Below, piece by piece: positions 40,803-58,319 of a DNA stretch of 64,000 nucleotides; positions within the stretch are counted from its first letter, which is position 1, and every line of letters begins with the position of its first letter. The stretch is from a virus, in the IMG/VR virus record IMGVR_UViG_3300045988_148533, positions 39,304 through 103,303 of that record, one strand, 5' to 3'. The position numbers were made by a program, and so were the translations under genes. The notes under the pieces are model-generated. The model was not told where the DNA came from and ran no database searches. It was given only the letters and a program-made list of their open reading frames with translations.

Positions 40803-42824
40803 TTACATTAACGCAAATATCAGCATTCGTGTTGTCATATCAGCACGAATTATGTTCACACCTTTCTTGCTGTCGTTGGACAGTGAACCATTAATTAGAA
40901 TAATGTTGCTCTTAGCCTTTTTCACGAACTCCTGAAGCCTGTCATAATCCCCTCCAAATATCAGGACTTCTATGAACTCATAGTTGCTTTCAAGCGTCAT
41001 CTTGCAGAATGTCTTAGGGGCTGTTCTACGACCACCCTTTGTCGTCTTAACCTCAACATCAGCCACATAACCACCCACAACAACCATTCCTTCTCCAGCC
41101 TTGACTTTCCGAGAGGTATCATTGCACTGCTCCACCGTCACATAGGAATACTCATCTGGGAAGCTACCTCTGTTATTCTCATACAGCCTATCATACCTGA
41201 AGAACGCGAACCCAGAAAGCTGCTTCTGCATAAGTCGCCACCACCACCCATCCTCACGATGCACGTATGCACCATTGAGGAGAGGGTCACTGTCATCAAT
41301 CTTAATCCTGTTCTTCTCAAAATACCTTCGCAGCAGAGACACCCTTTCCCGTACATCGGTAATGTTCTCTATGCTGTCAAACGCACCGCTCAGAATGAGG
41401 TTCTTAATTACTCGGCTGTTCACTGCCGTACCCTTCCAGTTATGGCGACTGACAAAGTCCTCAATTGACCAGTACTGCCCATTCTCATCTCTCTCCTTGA
41501 GTATCTGGTCAGCAGCCTTGTCGGCTACCTGTTTAACACCCATAATTGACCAATATAAAGACTGTGTCTTAAAGTCTATCACAACATTCTTAGTAGAGAT
41601 GTTAATATCCACAGGTTTCACTTCACACACGCCTGTCTTATTAATCTCAGCAATATAGCGTGGATAGTCATCATCCGTAGCATACTTAAAGGCCACACTC
41701 CAGTACTCAATAGGATAATGAACTTTCAGCCACTGAGATATATACCCTGTAATTGCATAGGCAGCTGCGTGACTCCGATTAAATAGGTAGAGGGATGCTT
41801 TATCAATAGCTTCCCACACACTCTCAGCATAATCATGGCTGACGCCAAAATGCTCCATATAATATGGGGTGAACCTCTCATGATACTGATGCAGTGCCTC
41901 ATATTTCTTCTTCACCATCGCCTTACGCACATCATCAGCCTCAACCAATGACAAACCTCCTAAAACCTTACACAACTCCATAACAGACTCCTGATATATC
42001 ACAAGGCCAAATGTCTTCTCAAGCACTTTTTCAGCACCCACCCAATATTTCACCTTACTCGGGTCTGCCTTACGAATAATATAATCCTCATGGAATCCAT
42101 TCTCCATTGCTCCAGGACGATATAGGGAAATGGCAGCTATCAGGTCTTCAATGTTGCGTGGCTGCATCTGCTTACAGTATCCAGTCAACCCTCTACTGCC
42201 AAAGTGGAAATTATCCTCATTCCAGCCGTTGCAGAAATACCTGTACACCTCTCTATCATCAAGAGGTGTGCTGTATATATCCACGTCCACACCCTCATTC
42301 TCCTTTATTAAGGTAATCATCTCCTGAAACTTATCCAGCTGCTTCACACCCAGAATATCCTGTTTCAAGAATCCAGCACTGTCCATCTCACCACCTTCCC
42401 ATTCGCTGACATATTCCTCACCCTGTTTTCTGATTGGAACCCAGTGGAACATATCGTGTTCCTTAGGAAAAATCATCGTAGCACAGGCATGAATGGACTG
42501 TGCCTTGGGGGCAGGCATAAGCAGCATCACCTCATTCACTATATCAGGGTGCTCTGTCACGAATTTCTTAACATTCTCATCCGCACAGGCTATCTTGAAC
42601 AGGTCTTCCGGCTTACGGTCACTAACATCAAATACTTTCATCATCTCATTCACCGTCTGGAATTCCAACCCGTATATTCTGGACATGTCCTTAATGGCCG
42701 CTCGCAGTTGCAGTGCGCTGTACGTACCCACGGAACATACTCTACTCCACCCGTATCGTTCTTCCATATATTTCTTCACCCGAGGTCTATCAACCGAGGG
42801 GAAGTCAACATCGATTTCACTTCG
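40803..42824 (-). CDS. dnaE: DNA polymerase III alpha subunit, exon 2 (catalytic DxD motif to C-terminus); 5-prime boundary approximate
   Basis: The frame is open from 42833 and reads WWGRSEIDVDFPSVDRPRVKKYMEERYG. EIDVDF corresponds to the PDxDxDF catalytic aspartates, yet it lies upstream of the first possible start (GTG at 42779). The remainder is co-linear with DnaE fingers and OB domains. Confidence 0.75.
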   Translation of the reverse strand, partial: RSEIDVDFPSVDRPRVKKYMEERYGWSRVCSVGTYSALQLRAAIKDMSRIYGLEFQTVNEMMKVFDVSDRKPEDLFKIACADENVKKFVTEHPDIVNEVMLLMPAPKAQSIHACATMIFPKEHDMFHWVPIRKQGEEYVSEWEGGEMDSAGFLKQDILGVKQLDKFQEMITLIKENEGVDVDIYSTPLDDREVYRYFCNGWNEDNFHFGSRGLTGYCKQMQPRNIEDLIAAISLYRPGAMENGFHEDYIIRKADPSKVKYWVGAEKVLEKTFGLVIYQESVMELCKVLGGLSLVEADDVRKAMVKKKYEALHQYHERFTPYYMEHFGVSHDYAESVWEAIDKASLYLFNRSHAAAYAITGYISQWLKVHYPIEYWSVAFKYATDDDYPRYIAEINKTGVCEVKPVDINISTKNVVIDFKTQSLYWSIMGVKQVADKAADQILKERDENGQYWSIEDFVSRHNWKGTAVNSRVIKNLILSGAFDSIENITDVRERVSLLRRYFEKNRIKIDDSDPLLNGAYVHREDGWWWRLMQKQLSGFAFFRYDRLYENNRGSFPDEYSYVTVEQCNDTSRKVKAGEGMVVVGGYVADVEVKTTKGGRRTAPKTFCKMTLESNYEFIEVLIFGGDYDRLQEFVKKAKSNIILINGSLSNDSKKGVNIIRADMTTRMLIFALM

Positions 42825-43917
42825 CCCCCACCATTACTGATGGGGGCATAACATCAGGCAGGGATACCGGAACGAATCCCTGCCTGAACTCCTTTTCAAT
42901 TTTTACTATTTTCGACATACTTAAAAAATTTACCTATCTGCCCTGAATATAACCCCATTTCCTTCATACCATTAGAATCATACCCCTGTTTCCAAAGCTG
43001 AACCATGCGGTATGCACCATAATATTTGGAGTCACACTCATTTAATATATAACGTTCTATCTCCTTTTGCGTAGACAATTTTCTGTCCGAAATTAAATAT
43101 CTATATTTACGAATTTTCTTCAACCCATACATTCCAAGAAAATCCGCTTCACGCATATAACTGTAAAAATTACATTCCCCTGTCCATAAATCATACACCC
43201 AACATGATTTCGCCTTCACATTTTTACCGCCCTTGCTTTTACCATTCTCCCTTCTCTTAATGGAAAGATTTTTCTTTTGTTCATCAGTCCATCTACGACC
43301 ATAATTAGGATTGGTCTCACCCTCAAAACGCGGAGGAAGCCCACCTCCCACCATCATATTTAAAACATCTGGTCGAGAAATAAAGGCCTCATCCACAATC
43401 CTCGCTTCGGACTCTAAAGCATCCTTAATGGAATGAAAATAACAAATAATCCTCTTTTTAAAATTCAAGTACCCATATTGTAGCAATGCTTTTCTAAATT
43501 TCGTTTCCTTCTCCTTATGACGTTTATATAAAACACCGCTTTTCCTTATTAAACACCCATTCCCTATATAAGTGTCAAATTCCGGGTGTAACCCCTTATA
43601 AACCCTGACACCAATATAAATATCATTAGTTATTACACACTTGGTTTCGTACAAATAAACCACGCGACGACCACCCAAATCAACGGGTATTTCAGAATAA
43701 TTAATACACTTGCTTAAATAGTCCATAATTCAATAAATTTAAGCAAACACTAAAGTCAAAATCAATAAGCAAGCAATTCGTCATTGACTTTAAAATCCTT
43801 TGCCTTGGCAATTATCTTATTTCCACCCCTGAACAAAACAAGTTCTTTATTTTCATCAAATTCCAAGATTCTGCCATTATCAAGAGTAATTTTAACAATA
43901 TTCTGCTTACGTACATA
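42825..43917 (-). mobile_element. intron-like insertion (probable group I intron) carrying a GIY-YIG homing endonuclease; boundaries +/- ~10 nt
   Basis: - It separates FERFLNKGRVG (exon 1) from SEIDVDF (exon 2), which are contiguous in bacterial DnaE.
- Candidate junctions obey the rule that the exon ends in U and the intron ends in G.
- Two strong hairpins occupy the 3-prime 70 nt. Confidence 0.6.
42896..43726 (-). CDS. GIY-YIG homing endonuclease (I-TevI-like, NUMOD-type linker)
   Basis: - VVYLYETKCVITNDIYIGV supplies GIY-N11-YIG.
- The mid-section block is KFRKALLQYGYLNF...ESEARIV.
- NPNYGRRWTDEQKKNLS is NUMOD3-like.
- The gene is visibly AT-rich. Confidence 0.8.
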   Translation of the reverse strand: MDYLSKCINYSEIPVDLGGRRVVYLYETKCVITNDIYIGVRVYKGLHPEFDTYIGNGCLIRKSGVLYKRHKEKETKFRKALLQYGYLNFKKRIICYFHSIKDALESEARIVDEAFISRPDVLNMMVGGGLPPRFEGETNPNYGRRWTDEQKKNLSIKRRENGKSKGGKNVKAKSCWVYDLWTGECNFYSYMREADFLGMYGLKKIRKYRYLISDRKLSTQKEIERYILNECDSKYYGAYRMVQLWKQGYDSNGMKEMGLYSGQIGKFFKYVENSKN

Positions 43918-45372
43918 ACCAACTCGGCCCTTATTCAAGAACCTTTCAAACAGCAGCCCATACTCCAGAGGGTCAAGTTTTGTAATCCCTATAAGATAGG
44001 AAATAAGACATCCTCCAGCACTGCCCCTACTTATACCTGTCAATATGCCGTTTTCATGACACCAATTGACAATGTCTCGAGTTATTAGGAAGTAGTCAAT
44101 TACATTACCGAACTTAATCACGTCTATTTCCCTCTCTAATCGCTCCAATACGACATCTTCACCCCACCTGTCAACCAACTCAGGATGAGCAGCCAGACCT
44201 TCCTCTATGAGGCCTAAAAACATCTCCTCATTGGTTGTGTACTTAGCAGCCTCATCAGGCTTCATCTCGTACTTAGGAAGATGCCTGTTGGCTGTGTCTA
44301 TCGTAAAGTCACACCCATCCGCAATGTCATTCAACAGCTGCATTGACTCGAGAAACAACTCTGCACCCACCTCTTCTTCAGAGAATAACTGCAAGAATTC
44401 CTCATACACAGCCTCATTTGACTTAAAATACTGATTATCACTTGCATACCCCATTCTGCCTGCAATACGATGCAGCCTATCCGGAATATCCGCATATTCA
44501 GCATCTATGTACCATGCATCACTAAACACCAGAGGCACAAGATTAGTGTCATAGAAGAATTTCTTAAGGTTCTTCAAGTACCACTCATCATGCCTCTCAT
44601 CACTGTAAGCACACGTGTCAAGCTGATAGAAAGCTGTATCAATATTCGCCTTACGAAATTCTTCGTAATCAAGTGTCTTAGGGTCAAGAATAACAGTAAT
44701 ATCATCATTGTTTCCTACAATTTCCCTAAATCTGTCAAGTGCCACCCACCCTGAATTGACACAGTTAATCTCAGTGTTGATTGTTAAAAGGGTCTGCCAC
44801 CCTTCAAAATTTCGGGCATAGACTTTCACTACAAAACGCACATCACTGTCAATGTCATACACGGTACACCCCATCCCGATGATGGGTTTAATGCCGAACT
44901 TCTGACATTCCATCTGAAATTTTAAAGCCCCTGCAAGAGAATTAACTTCACAGACACCCAGATTCCTTACCCCAAGAAACTTAGCCTTGCGACACCAATC
45001 CGTGTAAGTACCGCTTCCTGAAAGAATCTCATACTGTCCATGAACCCCCAAAAAAGTGTCCGTAGGAAGAGGAAAGGTACTTTCACCGAGGTATTTCAGC
45101 CTGTTCAACTTGACATCATTCTCCTGCCCCCTGTCCAGCCAGTACCACACCCCTCCGAACCTATACACGTACCTGTCGGCAAGTGTTTCATTATCCTCAT
45201 GTGGTTCAGTGTTGTATGGCTTGCCTATAAAGCAAAAGCCGTCATCAAACAGTGAACCGTCATCGGCAGGCACATACAGCTCATACGTCCTGTCCCCTAT
45301 TTCCACAACGGCATCAGACACCTCTGTGTAGGCTATACCATTTTCCTTGAGATATGCTATCAGTTCTTCCAT
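43918..45372 (-). CDS. dnaE: DNA polymerase III alpha subunit, exon 1 (PHP + palm N-part); 3-prime boundary approximate
   Basis: GISRGSAGGCLISYLIGITKLDPLEYGLLFERFLN matches the conserved DnaE palm block. The track ORF reads 51 codons further into the insertion before its stop at 43762. Confidence 0.75.
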
Positions 45373-46016: not shown

Positions 46017-46542
46017 ACATCGAAATATATGCAAGAATACGTGGAAAATCCTTACCGTGCCTGTGAATCAGCTTCATACACGTATCACGTGTCTCAAGTA
46101 TTTCCTTACTGCGATTACCATACGTTATCTCCTTGATACAGAAAATCAGCAGTTCAAGATAGTCGCAGCACTTAAACAGCGCATACTGTCTCTCATTCAA
46201 TGCAGCCTTGATATTCTCATCAGAATATTTCTCGAGATGAGTGCCCTGTGTCAATTCCTTCTCTATAACAGCCCATGCCCTCTTAGTTTCCTCACTGAAA
46301 TTCTTAACAGGATACGTCAGGTCGCCTGTAATGGCTTCCACGGCATCATGCTGAAGCACAATGTCAAACTCGTGCATGGTATATGCCACATCCTCAATTG
46401 AGGCCCACCACTTGAAAAGAATGGCGGTACGATAGCAGTGCTCCGCTATATTGTAGTGCTGATGGTGAAATGTACCTGTGAATCTTTCCACGTTGGACAT
46501 CCTGTACAGATTCTGTATGTCCTCTATAATATTACGCATCAT
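46009..46542 (-). CDS. HD-domain 5-prime-deoxynucleotidase (YfbR-like)
   Basis: NIAEHCYRTA ... LQHDAVEAITGDLTYPVK gives the H...HD...D pattern. Confidence 0.7.
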   Translation of the reverse strand: MMRNIIEDIQNLYRMSNVERFTGTFHHQHYNIAEHCYRTAILFKWWASIEDVAYTMHEFDIVLQHDAVEAITGDLTYPVKNFSEETKRAWAVIEKELTQGTHLEKYSDENIKAALNERQYALFKCCDYLELLIFCIKEITYGNRSKEILETRDTCMKLIHRHGKDFPRILAYISMYE

Positions 46543-47639
46543 AGTCCAAACACCTCATTAAGAATAGGGTTCTCAAATCTTTCCTGTGCAACAGGACATC
46601 CAAAGTGGTGAACCTTTTCCCACTTCCGAGCAAATACACGTATCCAGTCACGCTCCAGAGCGGACTTCGCCTTTTCAAGAGTATATTCCTTCATGCAGTC
46701 AACACCTTCTCTGAACAGTCTTTCCTGAGTGGCAATGCTAACCATAGCGTCATCAAAGTCAAACAGACTATTGAACGCCTTAGGATAGTAATAGCTGTGA
46801 ACAGGGAATTCCTCTCCATAGTACTTATTAGCGACATCCTCAACGAGAGGCACAAAATCCTCATACACGTGCAGATTGTCTGCCTTGTGATAGTACACAC
46901 CCACAGGCACACCCAGAATATTCGCAACATATTCCTGCATTAGGGTGAAGTTGAAAACATTCACTGCACTAAATCCCCATATCAGGTCATTGCTGCGAAT
47001 GTCCACATAACAGTTCAGCTTACCGTTCACAATCATAAAGTGAATGGAACGTGTACAGGGTGTATCCTTGGTAGGGAGAACCTGAAGATTCGTGTCAACA
47101 GGTTTCAGCCTAAACAGAAAGTCATCTGCAATGGGGTTGTGAATTGTGATGCACGCCTCACGAGTGGTTATATCCTCCTTGAACTTTTCCAAGACAAATC
47201 TAAGCTGGTCAACTCTACCCTTTGCAAGCAGCGGTGACTGCCAATCCTCCATGTACTGATTACCTGTCATTACATCGCTGTCCTTATACTGCATTACTCT
47301 CTTGAATGAATCATAGGCTCTTATGCGAGGGCCGTATCCAGCTCTCATATACTTGCCGTCATCCGAGAAATTATTCAAATTAGTGACATAGGCAGCAGGC
47401 ATTGTCATGCTGTTACTGCCTAATGCAAGCCACAGAGACTCCACCCATCCGAGTGTCCTGTTCCACTTGCGCTCTGGAACAGTAACATATCTCTCACATG
47501 GATTGGTTATAGCTATCATCACAGGCTCTGGAAACTCATAGCACCTGTGGCCACGCCTCATCTGTTCAATGCCGTGTTCCTTCAGTTCACGACAGAGGCG
47601 TATAAATGCCTGATTAAGACTGTCAAATTCAAAATACAT
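46539..47639 (-). CDS. divergent thymidylate synthase (ThyA) family enzyme; candidate dUMP hydroxymethylase or thymidylate synthase
   Basis: TPCTRSIHFMIVNGKLNCYVDIRSNDLIWGFSAVNVFNFTLMQEYVA aligns by eye to the ThyA block PCH..QFYV.DGKLSCQLYQRSxDxxLGxPFNIASY. The catalytic Cys and the uracil-reading Asn are retained. There is an extra C-terminal extension of about 90 aa. Confidence 0.65.
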   Translation of the reverse strand: MYFEFDSLNQAFIRLCRELKEHGIEQMRRGHRCYEFPEPVMIAITNPCERYVTVPERKWNRTLGWVESLWLALGSNSMTMPAAYVTNLNNFSDDGKYMRAGYGPRIRAYDSFKRVMQYKDSDVMTGNQYMEDWQSPLLAKGRVDQLRFVLEKFKEDITTREACITIHNPIADDFLFRLKPVDTNLQVLPTKDTPCTRSIHFMIVNGKLNCYVDIRSNDLIWGFSAVNVFNFTLMQEYVANILGVPVGVYYHKADNLHVYEDFVPLVEDVANKYYGEEFPVHSYYYPKAFNSLFDFDDAMVSIATQERLFREGVDCMKEYTLEKAKSALERDWIRVFARKWEKVHHFGCPVAQERFENPILNEVFGL

Positions 47640-47641
47640 AA

Positions 47642-48682
47642 CTAAATATTTTTAAGTAATACACTATTTCTATCGGGAAGTTTACATTTACCCCATTTGG
47701 GAGGGAAAACGTACTCCAAGCCACCATGAGGAGAATACATTCTCTTTATCCTCTCCTTGCTACCTGACTTGAAGGTAGCTCCAAGCCCCTTTGCATACTT
47801 GCTAATCTCACAGAAGCAGTTCTGCAAGTTGGTAAGCGTTGGAACAGGTTCCCACGGCAGAGGATGCCACTCCATGCCTGACTCTCTGCAGAAATCGTGC
47901 ATAAGTTCCTCAAAATTACTCTGAAGCCACCTTATTGCACCGACATAGTCATACTTCTTACCGTTAGCACCCTCAAATACCCACCGAATCCCCCTAAGAC
48001 TTCCTGGCCCTGTAACCACGAAATCATTCTCTGTAAAGTTGAATATAGAGGAGTAATTAAGGTCTATCGCGTACTGCTGCGCTATGAAATCACCATATAT
48101 GCGCATCGAGCGAAATTCCCTATATAGAGCCTCAAAGGAATCCGCCCTCAAAAAGTCCCACAGCCTGTCATTTCCAAAAATTTCATTCTGAAAAACTCTG
48201 AAATATGCCCTGTGCTTACTCAGCCCCTCCATCCAGCTGTACTCCGGCAGCTGATAGAAATATCCGGTAACAATGTATGCACTGTTGTATATGTTCACAC
48301 CCTCTTCAAGCAGTGTGTCCACATAGTCAGCCATCGCCTCAAGATAAGTACCTGTGTTCACATTATAGCGTATATCCCCGAATTCCTTTTCAAGGAGCTG
48401 CCACGTCTCAATCTTGTTAAAATGCTTGAACAACAGCACTCTAAAGAATATGTCCTCAGGGGTGTACTGCCTGCCATTATACAGAACATTCCGAATAAGG
48501 TACTGACTGACCCTGTCAAGACACCTGTAAACATTCGTAAAGGAATACTCACAGAGTATAGGGTCTGATGTCCACGGCTGCTCATCACCCCTGTACTTGT
48601 GCCAGAAAATATTCATCCGTTCACACATCCAGTACAGCAGCCATGTTAGATTCTCTTTATTCGGGATTATTCTGCTCTGCAT
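47642..48682 (-). CDS. aGPT-Pplase-like protein (putative DNA base hypermodification enzyme); start uncertain
   Basis: The motifs PWTSDPIL, FTNVYRCLDRVSQ and GDFIAQQYAIDLNYS...GPGSLRGI match my recollection of the alpha-glutamyl/putrescinyl thymine pyrophosphorylase family. This is not verified by search. Confidence 0.45.
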   Translation of the reverse strand: MQSRIIPNKENLTWLLYWMCERMNIFWHKYRGDEQPWTSDPILCEYSFTNVYRCLDRVSQYLIRNVLYNGRQYTPEDIFFRVLLFKHFNKIETWQLLEKEFGDIRYNVNTGTYLEAMADYVDTLLEEGVNIYNSAYIVTGYFYQLPEYSWMEGLSKHRAYFRVFQNEIFGNDRLWDFLRADSFEALYREFRSMRIYGDFIAQQYAIDLNYSSIFNFTENDFVVTGPGSLRGIRWVFEGANGKKYDYVGAIRWLQSNFEELMHDFCRESGMEWHPLPWEPVPTLTNLQNCFCEISKYAKGLGATFKSGSKERIKRMYSPHGGLEYVFPPKWGKCKLPDRNSVLLKNI

Positions 48683-49397
48683 ACCTATTCTGATTGATAT
48701 AGTTACCCTTATTAACGTATTCTCTAAATTCCCCACAAATTTCGGGAACACCAAAGAATTCAAAGATGCTGCACCCCAAATCCCACACAGGAGAACTGTA
48801 CGCTTCCTCCTTAATCACCACATTTGCCCCCTCAGCATTCAGCAGTGCAGCTTCCTCTCGTGACTTAGCAATGTCACTCTCAAAGCCACTTCTCTTGTGC
48901 CACATTGCGTCCCCCTTCGGAGGTTTTCCCGAACGGTACACCACCCTGTCATAGTACTCCTCATGTTCCTTTTCTGTAAAGTCATAGCGCACATATAGGA
49001 TGTTCATGAATTCACACACGGCTATAAGTTCCATCGGTCTAAGCCTCCATGAGACTGACGTGCCTGCCCCCTCCAGAAGAACATTCATCCTCTTCATGCC
49101 TACTTCCTTTAGGAAGTCTGACACACCTGCCGAATTGACAAATCTGCTTGTAACACTGTCCAGCCCCTGCCACCGCCTTACACCTTGATTTTCATAGAAC
49201 TTGCCTATCACAATTAAGTTGAATTCCGGAACATATACCCCCACTTCCTTCTCCTTGCCCTCAGAATTGACCCATCTGTACGGCTGAAATTCCACACCAA
49301 TGCTTTCCAGAAAATCAAGAAAGCAGTAAACCCGAGTGGATTTACCGCTTCCAGACGTACCCTTGACAAGGACTATGGTTCCGTAGTCCTTTATCAT
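48657..49397 (-). CDS. stand-alone P-loop kinase (candidate 5-hmdU DNA kinase)
   Basis: Walker A VKGTSGSGKST and Walker B-like MNVLLEGAG. The functional call rests on genomic context only. Confidence 0.4.
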   Translation of the reverse strand: MIKDYGTIVLVKGTSGSGKSTRVYCFLDFLESIGVEFQPYRWVNSEGKEKEVGVYVPEFNLIVIGKFYENQGVRRWQGLDSVTSRFVNSAGVSDFLKEVGMKRMNVLLEGAGTSVSWRLRPMELIAVCEFMNILYVRYDFTEKEHEEYYDRVVYRSGKPPKGDAMWHKRSGFESDIAKSREEAALLNAEGANVVIKEEAYSSPVWDLGCSIFEFFGVPEICGEFREYVNKGNYINQNRYAEQNNPE

Positions 49398-53556: not shown

Positions 53557-56500
53557 TCATACTGTATCAATTTTAATCTGTACATTACCCTCTCTGAGGT
53601 AATTAATAGCCATATAGGATGATGATAACGTATCATCGTGGCCGCTTATACTCTCCAATGTTCCCTTGTCACTTCTAAAGGCAACGGAATTAAATTCACC
53701 GAAAAGCATATTTATCTTGTCCCTGTCATCATGATGATACGGTACTTTTATCACACCTCTCTCAAAAAGAGCAGCCAATGACGGCCACCCACTCCGCAAA
53801 TCCTTCTTATTGTTAGTGGTTGTAAATCTTATAATATTCTTGACACCACCGTCTATCGCCAGACTACCCAGCACCGACTGGAAGTTATTGTTCTCCACCA
53901 CAACAGCATTCGGCCTGAATATCGTATTCAAAGTGATAATCCTCTGCACCTGTTCATCATACGGCATACCCTTTGCCCTGTATAGATGCAGAAGATAATA
54001 AATACCCATCCTATCCCTGCCCCACACTGTGAAACAAGTATAGTCAGCACCGACAGCACCGCTTATTCCAAAATCCACTCCAACAGCTACTGCATCCAGT
54101 TTGTAGGGGAAAGACTCTTGATTGTTCACAAGGTGAACATTCTCCATTCCAATTGTGCTTCGCTTTAGAATGTCCCACGGAAATATTGTGCTATCGTCCG
54201 ATATCGGCACCACCAGATACTCCCTCGAAAATACCAAGGAGCCTGCGGATTCCCTCTCAGCCATCAACTTCTCGAACGTAAATCTATCCGGAGCCAACAA
54301 CCTACCATCAGGAAAAACAGCAGGGTATTCAAATACCTTGAACTTACCGTCTTTCTTCAAGGAATCATAAAGGTCAGTCGATTGGTACGGGGTATTATGA
54401 GAAATGATGCCATTTGAAAGAAATGTATGAGTTTTACCCATTGTAAAATCAACCGTTATACTCCTACCCTTTCCAATTGACTTCACCCTCAAAAAAGTGT
54501 ACCCTCTTTCGGCATTAGCTTTCAATTCAAATGCTTCCTCACTTACGACTCCAGATGCAGCCACCCATTTTCCAACATTTTGAATATCCCTTAACTTATG
54601 AATACTCACTTTCTTTTTACCCCACATCTTCAACCTCTCCAAACCAAAAGTTTTTCTATCAGAAATCGTAAGGGGTTTTTGCTTTCTAACAGCCTTAATC
54701 AATCTACTCTGATACGGTACACGCAACAAGGAAAGACTATTACGGTATTTAAAAGTGTGCCATTTATCACCCTTTCCGGAATTAGGAAATCCAATTTCCT
54801 TCATAAAAAGGTTAATCATCTCTTCACTGTCAATCCTAAGCAGATACCCCATTCTGTTGGACTTAACCCTTTCAGAACTCTGACATTTCTTAACCTTAAC
54901 TGAAGACAGTATTCCAAGATTGAGTAGTGCAAACTGTATCTGACGTATTAACTCCATGCTGACAGAAAAACAGCTTATATTTCCATCAATTGAAAAACAT
55001 CCATCACCATCAAAATAACCCGACAAAAACTTTGTAATTTCTCTCTTTCCAGCATGAAATATCTTTTCAGGAATCACCTTAGTATGGCTATACCACCCCA
55101 ATTCATATCCCAAAGAAGCCCATAATTCACGCTTATCAGCTTTATAATATCTTAAATGAATTCCATCATAAACACCGTTCACCTCCCTCCATCCTCTATC
55201 AATTAAATACTGCCTAATACCAGCATTTCTCTTTGCAATAGTTATTCTATCACTGGATAAATGCCCATCGGCAATACTTAATCCTATTTGATACAATTCA
55301 TCATCACTTATATTAAGAGACTCTCCCCATATATTTGCACCCACTTTCATAGCCACAAAATCACCGATACAAATATCTTCAGCCTTCTTCCATTTATAAC
55401 AGCCGTCATCACCACATACCATAATAGGATGAATCATGCTCGTTTCCAGCGTAAACCCTTTTTCCAACTGAATCAACCTTGTCTCCGTTTCACCATTTAT
55501 ATAATATTTTTCAGCCAGCTCTAATTCCTGACCATTATAAATGAATTTATTGAAAGAATAATACCCCTTAGGACTTGTGAGTGGTACAGGGCAAAGTTCT
55601 CCTATCATACGAATACCCCTATCCGTAAGTACAAATGTATCCGGTGAAACACAACCGTCCACAATGTTATACCCATAAGGTTCCACAATAGGAGAGATGG
55701 AACCTTTGAAAATATTTTCCAGCTTCTGCCTCTGTTCCAAGGAGTAGATACTACTCTCATCAGGGAGGTCATCACTAACAGCTGCTCCAACGTGCAGACC
55801 TCGAATAAATCCTCCTGCTCCTCTGAGGTGTAGCTTAGTACCATTCTCACCCTCAACTGACTTCTCTGCCAGAACCGCCTTGCCGTTAGGGTTTATGACA
55901 TGACATAGAATGTCATTAGCCTTTATCTCCTCAACTATCTTATCCACGTGTTCCTTTCCAAGAGTTTCCGTATTGGTTATAATACACGTTTCCTGTCGAT
56001 TCTTATTATCAGGGGTATCAGGCTTCATATAGTTTGGTCTGCGATAGCTGTACAGCCTCCACAGCGGGAAGGCGAAGCAGAACTCATAGGAGTTGTGAAC
56101 CACTGTACCGTCCTCCAACTGAAATAGATGGTCTCCATCCGTCATGAACCCATAATAGGATTCCTTTCCAATAGGCTCTATAACTATATCCATCTTCTCC
56201 AGTACAGGCGTATCAGGAGAAAACACTCTGTACCCCTTGAACCTCTTACGCCTGAGGGGTGTCAATGAATAATACCTCTCAGCCTCAATCTCGACATATT
56301 CCTTCTTCTTAGTGTCAAACAGGCATAGGATGTGTGGTGCGTTTACAGCATACGCCATACCTCCTTCCTGCTCTATACGGTACATATCACTGAATCCTAT
56401 GTGCCTCGTCAATACCTTTCTTGGGGTATAGTCTATGCCCATCACCTCCATCCCAGGATATATATCTTCAACATTCTTGACAGTAAAGTCTGCCATCAAT

Positions 56501-56913
56501 ATTCTCGTGCCTCGAATAAAGCACTTTCCATGAGAACGAGCAGCAAGATAGGCACTGTTCTGATACAGCTGAATCAAATTACCCCACTCAAGATTCCTCC
56601 ACCCCTGCCTGAAGTTATTCAAAACTGTCGTCTTGAAATAATTATAGGAATGAATTTTCAGGGTATCATCCATGCTCTCACCGAGCTGCTCGATGTAGCT
56701 CAATTTCTCTGTTTCGAGAGTCCTATTCAGTGTCAGAACACTGTCCGTCTGCCGAAAAATCTCAGTAAGCAGCGCATCTATATCTCCATTATAGGCAGTA
56801 AGCAGTTGATTGACAGCCTTATTAGGAAGAGACTCTATAATGCTGAATGCCGTGTTATAGACATTATCCAGCTGCTTGTAGCTTAATTTTAAATCTTCAT
56901 TGAAGTAAATCAT
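53557..56913 (-). CDS. terL: terminase large subunit precursor containing two inteins
   Basis: After removing both inteins, the 554-aa extein has Walker A AARSHGK-S, an acidic Walker B-like block (AAVSDDLPDE), NIVDG-TPYQSTDLY, and a C-terminal RNase H-like nuclease (VGVDFG ... GHDD). Confidence 0.8.
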   Translation of the reverse strand: MIYFNEDLKLSYKQLDNVYNTAFSIIESLPNKAVNQLLTAYNGDIDALLTEIFRQTDSVLTLNRTLETEKLSYIEQLGESMDDTLKIHSYNYFKTTVLNNFRQGWRNLEWGNLIQLYQNSAYLAARSHGKCFIRGTRILMADFTVKNVEDIYPGMEVMGIDYTPRKVLTRHIGFSDMYRIEQEGGMAYAVNAPHILCLFDTKKKEYVEIEAERYYSLTPLRRKRFKGYRVFSPDTPVLEKMDIVIEPIGKESYYGFMTDGDHLFQLEDGTVVHNSYEFCFAFPLWRLYSYRRPNYMKPDTPDNKNRQETCIITNTETLGKEHVDKIVEEIKANDILCHVINPNGKAVLAEKSVEGENGTKLHLRGAGGFIRGLHVGAAVSDDLPDESSIYSLEQRQKLENIFKGSISPIVEPYGYNIVDGCVSPDTFVLTDRGIRMIGELCPVPLTSPKGYYSFNKFIYNGQELELAEKYYINGETETRLIQLEKGFTLETSMIHPIMVCGDDGCYKWKKAEDICIGDFVAMKVGANIWGESLNISDDELYQIGLSIADGHLSSDRITIAKRNAGIRQYLIDRGWREVNGVYDGIHLRYYKADKRELWASLGYELGWYSHTKVIPEKIFHAGKREITKFLSGYFDGDGCFSIDGNISCFSVSMELIRQIQFALLNLGILSSVKVKKCQSSERVKSNRMGYLLRIDSEEMINLFMKEIGFPNSGKGDKWHTFKYRNSLSLLRVPYQSRLIKAVRKQKPLTISDRKTFGLERLKMWGKKKVSIHKLRDIQNVGKWVAASGVVSEEAFELKANAERGYTFLRVKSIGKGRSITVDFTMGKTHTFLSNGIISHNTPYQSTDLYDSLKKDGKFKVFEYPAVFPDGRLLAPDRFTFEKLMAERESAGSLVFSREYLVVPISDDSTIFPWDILKRSTIGMENVHLVNNQESFPYKLDAVAVGVDFGISGAVGADYTCFTVWGRDRMGIYYLLHLYRAKGMPYDEQVQRIITLNTIFRPNAVVVENNNFQSVLGSLAIDGGVKNIIRFTTTNNKKDLRSGWPSLAALFERGVIKVPYHHDDRDKINMLFGEFNSVAFRSDKGTLESISGHDDTLSSSYMAINYLREGNVQIKIDTV
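54394..55653 (-). mobile_element. intein 2 of TerL (420 aa, LAGLIDADG homing endonuclease type)
   Basis: It starts at Cys421 (CVSPDTFVLTDRG) and ends with SHN followed by Thr841. The two LAGLIDADG motifs are LSIADGHL and SGYFDGDGCF. The junction codons were checked on the DNA (aca at 55651-55653, att at 54394-54396). Confidence 0.75.
56092..56523 (-). mobile_element. intein 1 of TerL (144-aa mini-intein in the P-loop)
   Basis: It starts at Cys131 (CFIRGTRILMAD) and ends with VVHN followed by Ser275. Excision restores GK-S of the Walker A motif. The Cys codon was checked at 56521-56523. Confidence 0.75.
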
Positions 56914-57584: not shown

Positions 57585-57985
57585 ATTGCTAACCTCAAAA
57601 TTTCCAAGTCATAATCCCTGTCATCTATGTCATCATATTCCAGACACAGATTAACAACAGGATTCTTATCACCCTTTAGACCGAGCGGAAATTCATTTAT
57701 CATGATAAATGGAACCCCCTCCTCGGTTATACCGTCATAATAACTCAAGATATATGCCTTTCGCAGCCTGTATTTCAGCCTGTCCCTAAAGTAAATTACA
57801 GGCTTGACACTATTCTCAATCTTGTCCACAAGATTGTTAAATCTGTCAATAAATTCCTTGCTCTCAATGCCATGCTCAAGAATTATTCCCTCAATATCAC
57901 TTCTGTGATAACTCTTTACAAGCCGGAGAAGTATGTCAGTCAGATTATTTTCCATTTCCAAACTCATATTTATGGTGGCACTCAA
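57581..57985 (-). CDS. hypothetical protein
   Basis: 134-aa ORF. Confidence 0.45.
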   Translation of the reverse strand: MSATINMSLEMENNLTDILLRLVKSYHRSDIEGIILEHGIESKEFIDRFNNLVDKIENSVKPVIYFRDRLKYRLRKAYILSYYDGITEEGVPFIMINEFPLGLKGDKNPVVNLCLEYDDIDDRDYDLEILRLAI

Positions 57986-58319
57986 TACAGAGCAGCTCTA
58001 TATTTTCCTTGCATAAACGCAACTCCGGATATGCCCCCTTTGACTTGATGTGACTAAAGTAATGAACTCTCATAGGTTCTGAAAGCCTCTTACCGCACTT
58101 CACACACACGTGTTCTCTTTCCATCCAAATTTCCTTGAACATAGAAAGCTCTCCAGTAGGAATTCTGAACTGAGGCTTCCGTTCCCTGTGCTTTTGATAC
58201 GCCACGTCCTTTCTTGACAGACCGTTGTGCAACCTCCGGTAGTTGCATTCGTCACACAGGCACTTAGTGCGATTAACAATATATCGCACCTTACCACATC
58301 TCTTACATACTGCGTACAT
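57945..58319 (-). CDS. HNH endonuclease
   Basis: Two CxxC pairs (CKRCG...CDEC and CVKCG...) and HIKSKGAYPELRLCKENIELLCIECHHKYE. Confidence 0.6.
   Translation of the reverse strand: MYAVCKRCGKVRYIVNRTKCLCDECNYRRLHNGLSRKDVAYQKHRERKPQFRIPTGELSMFKEIWMEREHVCVKCGKRLSEPMRVHYFSHIKSKGAYPELRLCKENIELLCIECHHKYEFGNGK

What the first reader, a model, noticed from the sequence alone, without database searches (positions are those of the whole stretch)
53557..56913. Large terminase carries two inteins: a mini-intein inside the Walker A P-loop and a LAGLIDADG intein before the TP(Y) motif
**Seen in the sequence**
- The TerL ORF is 1118 aa.
- Residues 131-274 begin with Cys (CFIRG) and end with HN followed by Ser. 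Removing them rebuilds ARSHGK-S, a canonical GKS P-loop.
- Residues 421-840 begin with Cys (CVSPD) and end with SHN followed by Thr. They contain two LAGLIDADG motifs, and removing them rebuilds NIVDG-TPYQ.
- Junction codons were verified on the DNA.

**Established knowledge**
TerL P-loop inteins are known, for example in mycobacteriophages.

**Inference**
Two inteins of different classes in one TerL, in the same genome as an intron-split polymerase, mark this phage as a hotspot for selfish elements in essential genes. Virion packaging must depend on two protein-splicing events.
Basis: partly seen in the sequence, partly recalled or inferred. Interest (0 to 1): 0.65.

Follow-up and report, generated by a model that had tools for sequence, protein, structure and literature searches.

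The report
Phage terminase gene with two inteins
The DNA-packaging motor gene of this roughly 100-kb phage is interrupted by two real self-splicing protein elements (inteins), one old and immobile and one recently acquired and probably still mobile. Both insertion sites, and terminases carrying two inteins, were already known, so this is a clean but ordinary example.

Summary
The ORF at 53557-56913 lies on the minus strand and encodes 1118 aa.

**Exteins.** With both inserts removed, the 554-aa product is one continuous large terminase (TerL).

**Intein 1 (aa 131-274).**
- It is a 144-aa mini-intein of the VMA1/Prp8 type, sitting exactly between Lys and Ser of Walker A.
- It has no endonuclease, is present in 85 of the 120 closest homologues, and is as constrained as the exteins (dN/dS 0.01-0.02).

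**Intein 2 (aa 421-840).**
- It is a full-length class-1 intein with a LAGLIDADG homing endonuclease. The model has pLDDT 90.9 and TM 0.72 to the TliVMA intein.
- It sits between Gly and Thr of the ATPase coupling C-motif (G|TP).
- It is an exact 1260-nt in-frame insertion that is missing from 99%-identical TerLs. Its GC content is low (0.37).
- Between two phage lineages it is about 10 times less diverged at synonymous sites than the rest of the gene, which indicates recent lateral spread.

**Novelty.** Both sites have precedents in mycobacteriophage TerL1-a and TerL6-f, and a two-intein TerL is published for a crAss-like phage. Metagenomic TerLs with the same two-site combination turned up in my own search. 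Both inteins are class 1, so "different classes" is a misnomer. This is a new member of a known kind.

The parts
53557..56913 (-). terL precursor ORF, 1118 aa plus stop. Its start overlaps the upstream RNase_T-like gene by 4 nt.
   Evidence: Pfam Terminase_6C at aa 944-1105. The same gene order is seen in L001 and L004.
56524..56913 (-). N-extein, aa 1-130, ending in the Walker A half AARSHGK (56524-56544)
   Evidence: It aligns to T7 gp19 FRGIGKS.
56092..56523 (-). Intein 1, aa 131-274: a 144-aa class-1 mini-intein with no endonuclease. Block A is CFIRG..., block B NAPH, block F GFMTDGDHLF, block G VVHN.
   Evidence: Pfam Hom_end_hint 61.6 bits against a cutoff of 32.1. PI-SceI E 5.6e-8. The family profile aligns end to end with Prp8 mini-inteins at E about 1e-13. 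C1, N61, H64, the block F residues and HN|S are invariant in 87 alleles. It is absent from the 550-567-aa homologues.
55654..56091 (-). Middle extein, aa 275-420. It starts with the Walker A Ser275, contains Walker B GAAVSDDLPDES (55753-55788) and ends in the C-motif half YNIVDG (55654-55671).
54394..55653 (-). Intein 2, aa 421-840: a 420-aa class-1 intein with a LAGLIDADG homing endonuclease. It is an exact 1260-nt insertion with GC 0.367.
   Evidence: Missing from L001 and L002 at this exact position. Pfam LAGLIDADG_3 at 52 bits, and Intein_splicing at 30.4 bits, which is below the cutoff. AF2 model pLDDT 90.9. Foldseek matches: TliVMA intein 7qss at E 5e-21 and TM 0.72, and PI-PfuI 1dq3. 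dS is 0.036 against 0.21-0.44 for the rest of the gene when compared with L004.
55258..55296 (-). LAGLIDADG motif 1 (LYQIGLSIADGHL, aa 540-552; catalytic Asp549 retained)
54994..55032 (-). LAGLIDADG motif 2 (KFLSGYFDGDGCF, aa 628-640; catalytic Asp637 retained). The conserved block D Lys is at aa 612.
53560..54393 (-). C-extein, aa 841-1118. It starts with the C-motif half TPYQS (54379-54393) and contains the RNaseH-like nuclease domain.
   Evidence: Terminase_6C. The profile hits the P74-26 and G20c TerL nuclease domains.

Best explanation
The gene encodes a TerL precursor that becomes an active packaging ATPase-nuclease only after two autocatalytic class-1 protein-splicing reactions.

Intein 1:
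- It is an endonuclease-less mini-intein lodged between the Walker A Lys and Ser.
- It descends from a full-length LAGLIDADG intein that still exists at the same site in related phages.
- It can no longer move, is inherited vertically, and is kept splicing-competent by selection, because failure to splice would destroy the P-loop.

Intein 2:
- It is a complete intein with a homing endonuclease, lodged between Gly and Thr of the ATPase coupling C-motif.
- It entered this phage lineage recently by homing or recombination from a lower-GC donor, and it has moved between lineages since they diverged.

Shown here: the exact insertions, the folds and family matches, intact catalytic residues, the presence/absence polymorphism and the discordant divergence.

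Inferred: that both inteins actually splice, that the endonuclease is active, and that packaging therefore depends on both splicing events.
For: Exteins:
- The in-silico spliced 554-aa protein matches phrog_38 TerL in one stretch at E 1.3e-51. The precursor gives two stretches at E 2.6e-41.
- Alignment A1 shows both inserts bounded exactly by conserved extein residues.

Intein 1:
- Pfam Hom_end_hint scores above the gathering cutoff.
- The family profile aligns from Cys1 to HN|S with Prp8 and PI-SceI inteins.
- The catalytic residues are invariant in 87 alleles.
- dN/dS is 0.014-0.02, the same as the exteins.
- P0092 and P0097 carry 345-349-aa endonuclease-bearing inteins at the same site. P0090, P0091 and P0092 have 99.8% identical exteins in the empty, mini and full states.

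Intein 2:
- It is an exact 1260-nt insertion relative to L001, with GC 0.367 against 0.41-0.45 for the exteins.
- The AF2 model has pLDDT 90.9 and pTM 0.92. Foldseek top hits are endonuclease-bearing inteins.
- Asp549, Asp637 and the block D Lys are retained.
- Against L004 it shows 13 mismatches in 1260 nt, compared with 129 in 2094 nt elsewhere in the gene (Fisher p 6e-15). dS is 0.036 against 0.21-0.44.
- The two intein-bearing alleles share synonymous changes at -10, -1, +5, +8, +11, +14 and +15 relative to the empty allele, as a co-conversion tract would.
- Its nearest relatives sit at the same ...G|C...SHN|TP(F/Y)xxxDLY site in other TerLs.

Other support:
- C-motif assignment: the profile aligns IVSG-TPY with T7 gp19 YLG-TPQ.
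- The double-intein gene occurs on several 50-200-kb contigs from different samples.
- There is no second TerL in the window.
Against: - No protein-level evidence of splicing or of endonuclease activity is available.
- Pfam Intein_splicing for intein 2 is below the gathering score (30.4 against 35.8 bits).
- Block B is NxxH in intein 1 and SxxH in intein 2, rather than the textbook TxxH.
- The AF2 model of the whole precursor was uninformative (pLDDT 38.7), so intein 1 has no confident model of its own.
- The window covers only 64 kb of a roughly 101-kb genome, so a second terminase elsewhere in the genome is not formally excluded.
Confidence: 0.9

Rival explanations
1. Intein 2 was acquired once in the common ancestor of the window and L004 lineages and has been inherited vertically since. 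On this reading the intein-free close relatives lost it by precise deletion, and there has been no recent mobility.
For: In the exteins the window and L004 are closer to each other (6.2% nucleotide divergence) than either is to the intein-free L001 (8.4-8.8%). Many sites are shared by the two intein-bearing alleles along the whole gene.
Against: Vertical inheritance predicts that intein 2 has the same synonymous divergence as its flanks. It has dS 0.036 against 0.21-0.44. Purifying selection cannot remove synonymous differences, and intein 2 in fact shows the more relaxed dN/dS (0.11). Its low GC also marks it as foreign.
Confidence: 0.07
2. One or both inserts no longer splice, so this terL allele is defective. 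The contigs would then represent dead-end or helper-dependent genomes.
For: There are no splicing data. Block B deviates from TxxH, and dN/dS for intein 2 (0.11) is higher than for the exteins.
Against: Cys1, the block B His, the block F Asp/His, the terminal His-Asn and the +1 Ser or Thr are all intact. The exteins and intein 1 are under very strong purifying selection, with dN/dS of 0.02 or less. The same architecture persists in two diverged lineages, on roughly 100-kb contigs from several samples.
Confidence: 0.04
3. The inserts are not inteins. They would be either in-frame self-splicing introns removed at the RNA level, or permanent domain insertions retained in the mature terminase.
For: The same genome has a polymerase gene interrupted by an element that carries a homing endonuclease ORF.
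Against: The reading frame is continuous through both inserts. Both have a Hint fold or Hint family match and canonical splice-junction residues. Rfam finds no intron in the window. An insertion left permanently between the Lys and Ser of Walker A, or inside the C-motif, would disrupt ATPase motifs that are conserved in all homologues.
Confidence: 0.02

Closest known systems
Mycobacteriophage TerL1-a 'classic' P-loop inteins (Kelley et al. 2016, PMC5050341)
   Same: [quoted passage not shown] It uses class-1 chemistry. Some of those inteins were shown experimentally to splice.
   Different: The TerL family differs (Terminase_1 there; here a Terminase_6C/T7-gp19-like TerL of an uncultured phage of about 100 kb). 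The intein here is a VMA1/Prp8-like mini-intein without an endonuclease, and there is no detectable sequence relationship to the TerL1-a inteins.
Mycobacteriophage TerL6-f inteins in the ATPase coupling C-motif (PMC5050341)
   Same: The intein lies inside the C-motif of a Terminase_6-type TerL.
   Different: I could not align the two TerLs, so identity of the exact residue position was not tested. Intein 2's closest relatives (34-46% identity) are in uncultured-phage TerLs, not in mycobacteriophages.
crAss-like Delta-group cMAG OBYQ01000140, whose TerL is split by two 'Hint-Hop' inteins (Yutin et al. 2021, PMC7886860)
   Same: One gut-phage TerL ORF carries two in-frame inteins.
   Different: That phage is crAss-like and uses TAG recoding. 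Here the standard code is used, the TerL family is different, and one of the two inteins is a mini-intein without an endonuclease.
Metagenomic TerLs P0133, P0217, P0124, P0153 and P0141
   Same: All are Terminase_6C TerLs with a C-motif G|C...SHN|TPF intein, which is a homologue of intein 2. P0133, P0217 and P0153 also show a GK|C...HN|S/T P-loop junction. P0217 is 1121 aa, with a 138-aa P-loop insert and a 387-aa C-motif intein. P0141 and P0153 have three inteins.
   Different: Their inteins are 35% identical to intein 2 or less, and their exteins are too diverged for simple comparison. They are unannotated and unpublished as far as I could find.
S. cerevisiae VMA1 intein (PI-SceI) and fungal Prp8 mini-inteins
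   Same: These are the closest solved relatives of intein 1, aligning from Cys1 to HN. Like the Prp8 mini-inteins, intein 1 lacks an endonuclease.
   Different: The hosts are eukaryotic, the exteins are different, and the insertion sites are different.
Archaeal inteins with homing endonucleases: TliVMA (7qss), PI-PfuI (1dq3), PI-PkoII (2cw7)
   Same: They share the overall Hint plus LAGLIDADG endonuclease architecture of intein 2 (Foldseek E 5e-21 to 1e-14, TM 0.63-0.72).
   Different: Sequence identity is only 13-17%. Their hosts are archaeal and their exteins are different.

Membership tests
Intein (class 1), intein 1, aa 131-274 | In-frame insertion at a conserved site that is absent from orthologues, with exteins that re-join into the conserved motif | tested here: met
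   Homologues of 550-567 aa read RSHGK-S/TYEF without a gap.
Intein (class 1), intein 1, aa 131-274 | Hint (splicing) domain | tested here: met
   Pfam Hom_end_hint scores 61.6 bits against a cutoff of 32.1. The profile aligns end to end with Prp8 and PI-SceI intein structures at E 6e-13. There is no confident 3D model of its own: this region had pLDDT 60-80 in a poor whole-precursor model.
Intein (class 1), intein 1, aa 131-274 | Cys/Ser at position 1, block B His, block F Asp/His, C-terminal His-Asn, and Ser/Thr/Cys at +1 | tested here: met
   Cys131, N191-x-x-H194 (Asn in place of the usual Thr), GFMTDGDH, His273-Asn274 and Ser275. All are invariant in 87 alleles.
Intein (class 1), intein 2, aa 421-840 | In-frame insertion that is absent from orthologues | tested here: met
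   It is absent from all 12 aligned homologues, including the 99%-identical P0001. It is an exact 1260-nt insertion relative to L001 and L002.
Intein (class 1), intein 2, aa 421-840 | Hint fold | tested here: met
   The AF2 model has pLDDT 90.9. Foldseek matches the TliVMA intein at TM 0.72 and also the Hint-only GyrA and Pol-II inteins. Pfam Intein_splicing alone is below the cutoff.
Intein (class 1), intein 2, aa 421-840 | Catalytic junction residues | tested here: met
   Cys421, S-M-I-His495 (block B), VDF...THTF (block F), His839-Asn840 and Thr841. H75, D402 and N414 are invariant, and C1, H419, N420 and T421 nearly invariant, in the 30-sequence family alignment.
Intein (both) | Protein splicing actually occurs | not testable with these tools
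   This needs expression or proteomics. Strong purifying selection on the exteins and on intein 1 is only indirect support.
LAGLIDADG homing endonuclease (within intein 2) | Two LAGLIDADG helices with their catalytic acidic residues, and the double alpha-beta-beta-alpha-beta-beta-alpha fold | tested here: met
   Pfam LAGLIDADG_3 scores 52 bits. Asp549 and Asp637 are present. Foldseek matches PI-PfuI, I-DmoI and I-Tsp061I.
LAGLIDADG homing endonuclease (within intein 2) | Mobility: presence/absence polymorphism and divergence that is discordant with the host gene | tested here: met
   Intein-free alleles exist at 99% amino-acid identity. dS is 0.036 against 0.21-0.44 for the rest of the gene. 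DNA cleavage itself was not testable.
Class 3 inteins (WCT triplet, block-F Cys nucleophile) | No N-terminal nucleophile is needed; a Cys at block F position 4 and the Trp-Cys-Thr motif are present | tested here: not met
   Both inteins start with Cys and have Asp, not Cys, at the block F position. Both are therefore class 1.
Large terminase (TerL), Terminase_6C/T7-gp19-like | N-terminal ATPase with Walker A, Walker B and C-motif, plus a C-terminal RNaseH-like nuclease | tested here: met
   This holds only after in-silico splicing. Evidence: phrog_38 at E 1.3e-51 in one stretch, Terminase_6C, and a profile alignment to T7 gp19 and 8dgc that covers GKS, DD..P and GTP, plus the P74-26 nuclease domain.

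The most novel reading that the evidence does not exclude
The endonuclease-less P-loop mini-intein is fixed across a clade spanning 68-99% TerL identity and is as constrained as the exteins. It may no longer be merely tolerated. It could have been co-opted as a conditional switch on its Cys nucleophile (redox, temperature or substrate dependent) that times activation of the packaging ATPase, with the newly arrived C-motif intein adding a second checkpoint.
Probability: 0.07. Interest if true: 0.6.

Novelty: new member of a known kind. Interest (0 to 1): 0.3.

Why it matters
It adds a well-resolved natural example to a known picture. TerL ATPase motifs are preferred landing sites for inteins, and one gene can hold elements at different stages of the homing cycle.

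The useful part is the population data:
- The same phage species-level group (92-93% nucleotide identity) has terL alleles with and without intein 2, and with and without the polymerase insertion.
- A sister lineage holds empty, full-length and mini P-loop alleles on 99.8%-identical exteins.

Together these give ready-made substrates for testing homing, co-conversion and splicing in a phage that is probably gut-associated.

For annotation, it shows that a 1118-aa 'giant' TerL should be read as a 554-aa enzyme. It changes no concept.

Tried and rejected
- **Megablast of the gene against deposited phages:** no match. tblastn with the exteins found only distant TerLs, the best being 55.7% to an unannotated faecal contig and 34% to Bacteroides phages DAC19 and relatives.
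- **Single-sequence PDB search with the exteins:** nothing. A 22-sequence profile was needed.
- **Word-indexed homologue search with intein 2:** only two hits, in a glycosyltransferase and a fragment. This briefly suggested that the intein was nearly unique. The exhaustive HMMER search corrected that with 4018 relatives, many at the same TerL site.
- **AF2 on the whole 1118-aa precursor with a 13-sequence alignment:** failed (pLDDT 38.7). That cost one of two jobs, so intein 1 has no good model of its own.
- **tblastn of intein 2 against deposited phages:** only relatives at 28% identity or less, in helicase and RecA genes of Staphylococcus, Listeria and other phages, and none in a TerL.
- **Group I intron explanation:** no Rfam hit in the window at gathering threshold, nor at E of 1 or less around the polymerase insertion. 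The ORF is continuous. Rejected for terL.
- **Class 3 intein:** rejected, as there is no WCT motif or block-F Cys.
- **A second TerL or a third intein in the window:** none.
- **My strict LAGLIDADG regular expression:** found nothing. The motifs are degenerate and were located through Pfam and the alignments instead.
Full report
**1. The observation**

The window has one long ORF at 53557..56913 on the minus strand, encoding 1118 aa.
- aa 131-274 is CFIRG…VVHN followed by Ser.
- aa 421-840 is CVSPD…ISHN followed by Thr.
- Deleting the two inserts restores AARSHGK-SYEF and NIVDG-TPYQ.
- The junction codons are AAG|TGC, CAC AAC|TCC, GGT|TGT and CAT AAT|ACC.
- The spliced product is 554 aa and 62.96 kDa. 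The precursor is 127.6 kDa.

**2. The host protein is a large terminase**

- The precursor hits Pfam Terminase_6C at aa 944-1105.
- After in-silico splicing, the 554-aa protein matches PHROG 38 (terminase large subunit) as one continuous stretch at E 1.3e-51. The unspliced ORF gives two stretches at E 2.6e-41.
- A profile of 22 intein-free homologues hits the nuclease domains of the P74-26 and G20c TerLs.
- In the ATPase half the same profile hits T7 gp19 (4bij) and 8dgc. It aligns RSsGKSyef with FRGIGKSF (Walker A), vvDDlP with IADDVE (Walker B) and ivSGTPys with YLGTPQT.
- From my own knowledge of T4 gp17 (C-motif TTT, residues 285-287, followed by Pro) and of T7 gp19, that last element is the ATPase coupling C-motif.
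- So insert 1 splits Walker A between Lys and Ser, and insert 2 splits the C-motif between Gly and Thr.
- The window has no second TerL-like sequence and no further intein.

**3. Comparative test of the boundaries**

A homologue search with the spliced exteins and the alignment A1 give a natural experiment.
- Proteins of 550-567 aa (54-65% identity) have neither insert and read …RSHGK-S/TYEF… and …V(S/D)G-TPY… with no gap.
- 85 of the best 120 hits (697-700 aa, mostly 68-99% identity) carry a 143-144-aa insert at exactly the first site and nothing at the second.
- Two proteins of 901 and 903 aa carry a 345-349-aa insert at the first site, with Hom_end and LAGLIDADG_3 domains.
- P0001-P0004 are 99% identical to the window's exteins. 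They come from contigs of about 100 kb and are 698 aa long (554 + 144), so they lack insert 2.
- At the DNA level, the contig of P0001 (L001) is collinear with the window at about 93% identity over 19 kb. Within terL the only length difference is an exact 1260-nt (420-codon) insertion at window 54394-55653.

**4. Intein 1 (aa 131-274)**

- Pfam Hom_end_hint scores 61.6 bits against a gathering cutoff of 32.1.
- The N- and C-terminal blocks align with PI-SceI (E 5.6e-8).
- The family profile aligns from Cys1 to HN|S with the crystal structures of Prp8 mini-inteins (E 6e-13).
- Across 87 alleles, Cys1, Asn61-x-x-His64 (block B), the GF..D.DH block F, His-Asn and Ser+1 are invariant.
- At 144 aa it has no room for an endonuclease. 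The endonuclease-bearing relatives at the same site (P0092, P0097) show what was lost.
- In a sister lineage P0090 (empty), P0091 (138-aa mini) and P0092 (349-aa full) have 99.8% identical exteins. All stages of the homing cycle therefore coexist there.
- In the window's own clade the mini-intein diverges in step with the exteins: 99/85/72/66% identity for the intein against 99/90/73/72% for the exteins. Its dN/dS is 0.014-0.02, the same as the exteins.
- It is therefore an old, vertically inherited, immobile element that is kept functional.

**5. Intein 2 (aa 421-840)**

- Pfam gives LAGLIDADG_3 at 52 bits. Intein_splicing matches only its C-terminal two-thirds, below the cutoff.
- An AF2 model built on a 30-sequence family alignment is confident (pLDDT 90.9, pTM 0.92).
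- Its best PDB matches are full-length inteins with homing endonucleases: TliVMA 7qss (E 5e-21, TM 0.72), PI-PfuI, PI-PkoII and PI-SceI.
- Hint-only inteins and I-DmoI-type endonucleases match the respective halves of the model.
- The catalytic residues are all present:
  - Cys421
  - the block B His (S-M-I-H)
  - the block F Asp and His
  - His839-Asn840 and Thr841
  - both LAGLIDADG aspartates (Asp549, Asp637)
  - the block D Lys
- Both inteins are class 1 and neither has the class-3 WCT or block-F Cys signature.

**6. Intein 2 is a recent, laterally moving arrival**

- Its GC content is 0.367, against 0.41-0.45 for the exteins and 0.466 for the window.
- The exact window protein occurs on four or five contigs. 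A variant differing at 8 residues (P0123) occurs on three more, including a 101.4-kb contig (L004).
- Window versus L004: intein 2 has 13 mismatches in 1260 nt (98.97% identity). The rest of the gene has 129 in 2094 nt (93.8%), Fisher p 6e-15.
- By Nei-Gojobori, dS is 0.036 for intein 2 against 0.21-0.44 for the N-extein, intein 1, the middle extein and the C-extein.
- Vertical inheritance from a shared ancestor cannot produce a tenfold deficit of synonymous change, but transfer after the lineages split can.
- The two intein-bearing alleles also share a cluster of synonymous differences from the empty allele immediately around the junction (-10, -1, +5, +8, +11, +14, +15). The window alone has six more private changes within 60 nt upstream. 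This fits co-conversion tracts of different lengths.
- dN/dS for intein 2 is higher (0.11), and 4 of its 13 changed sites alter an amino acid against 4 of 129 elsewhere (p 0.0025). That is typical of a selfish element.

**7. Where intein 2 comes from**

- The exhaustive HMMER search found 4018 relatives at E of 0.001 or less. Apart from P0123, the closest is 34% identical over its full length.
- Many of the best hits are inserted at the same place in other TerLs, …GGQIIVVG|C…SHN|TPFxxxDLY…, and carry Terminase_6C/6N domains.
- P0186 is a truncated TerL of the window's own family, with 54% identical exteins. It has no P-loop intein but carries a C-motif intein that is 46% identical over its first 127 residues.
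- Intein 2 therefore belongs to a widespread lineage of inteins specific for the TerL C-motif. The two sites are invaded independently.

**8. Comparison with what is known**

- Kelley et al. 2016 (PMC5050341) found TerL to be the commonest intein host in mycobacteriophages, with seven sites, all in the ATPase domain.
[quoted passage not shown] They also showed splicing and endonuclease activity for some TerL inteins.
- Yutin et al. [quoted passage not shown]
- A 2025 survey counts 293 TerL inteins in actinobacteriophages.
- In my own search, P0133, P0217 (1121 aa, with a 138-aa P-loop insert and a 387-aa C-motif intein) and P0153 show the same two-site combination. P0124 also carries two inteins, and P0141 and P0153 have three.
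- The finding is therefore correct but is a new member of a known kind.

**9. Mechanism**

Inferred from established intein chemistry.
- The precursor cannot bind or hydrolyse ATP productively, because 144 residues separate the Walker A Lys from its Ser and 420 residues interrupt the C-motif.
- Each intein carries out the same sequence:
  1. an N-S acyl shift at Cys1;
  2. trans-esterification to the +1 Ser or Thr;
  3. Asn cyclisation;
  4. an O-N shift that restores the native peptide bond.
- The Ser and Thr used as +1 nucleophiles are themselves conserved motif residues, which is why these sites are safe havens for inteins.
- The free intein 2 protein would then cut intein-less terL alleles during co-infection and be copied in by repair.

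**10. Context**

- The ~20 kb of neighbouring genes compared between L001/L004 and the window carry DnaB-like helicase, dUTPase/DCD, HMUD2/HMUDK and thymidylate-synthase-like base-modification genes, DNA pol III alpha, and baseplate and tail genes.
- The source contigs are about 101 kb long.
- The nearest deposited TerLs come from a human faecal contig and from Bacteroides phages. The phage is therefore probably a gut Bacteroidota myovirus, but this is an inference.
- The window's polymerase gene is interrupted by a 1.13-kb element with a homing-endonuclease-like ORF. That element is absent from both L001 and L004.
- 'Hotspot' is therefore fair for this particular genome, but the elements are independent and only two of the three are recent.

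Noticed in passing
window 40803-45372 (-), insertion at about 42818-43946: The DNA polymerase III alpha gene is split into ORFs 43762-45372 and 40803-42779 by a 1.13-kb insertion. The insertion is absent from the close relatives L001 and L004, which encode an intact 1160-aa polymerase. Its 276-aa ORF (42896-43726) matches phrog_314 'homing endonuclease' but no Pfam family. Rfam finds no group I or II intron there, even at E of 1 or less. L004 has intein 2 but not this insertion, so the two elements move independently.
   Followed up: partly
window 57945-58319 (-): A 124-aa HNH-endonuclease-like ORF (Pfam HNH and NinG, both weak; phrog_144) lies two genes upstream of terL. It may be a packaging-associated HNH protein rather than a free-standing selfish gene. 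It is also present in L001 and L004.
   Followed up: no
window 46539-49397 (-); L001 16267-19125: A block of genes for thymidine hypermodification lies downstream of terL: HMUD2, HMUDK_hel and a thymidylate-synthase-like gene, with dUTPase/DCD and an HD-domain gene nearby. This suggests that the phage DNA carries a modified base. The Pfam calls are on the collinear L001 and L004 genes, not on the window ORFs themselves.
   Followed up: no
proteins P0090, P0091 and P0092 (homologues, not in the window): Three TerL alleles with 99.8% identical exteins carry no intein, a 138-aa mini-intein and a 349-aa endonuclease-bearing intein at the P-loop site. This is a complete homing cycle captured in one lineage.
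   Followed up: partly
proteins P0141 (1583 aa) and P0153 (1753 aa): These metagenomic TerLs have three inteins. The third lies inside the nuclease domain, ending …TIVHN|CV(M/I)SL. I did not find that site mentioned in the papers I read.
   Followed up: no
protein P0121 (686 aa): A homologue of intein 2 (31% identity, full length) sits inside a family-2 glycosyltransferase (…GLG|CLTGDT…FIVHN|TFEDTDYC…). This looks like extein switching within this intein lineage. Several similar hits (P0140, P0167, P0168, P0175, P0178) share the HN|T(F/Y)ED junction.
   Followed up: no
window 55594-55653 (60 nt upstream of the intein 2 junction, extein side): The window has six private synonymous changes here relative to both L004 and L001. 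This may be a longer co-conversion tract from the intein donor, which would imply separate homing events into the window and L004 lineages.
   Followed up: partly
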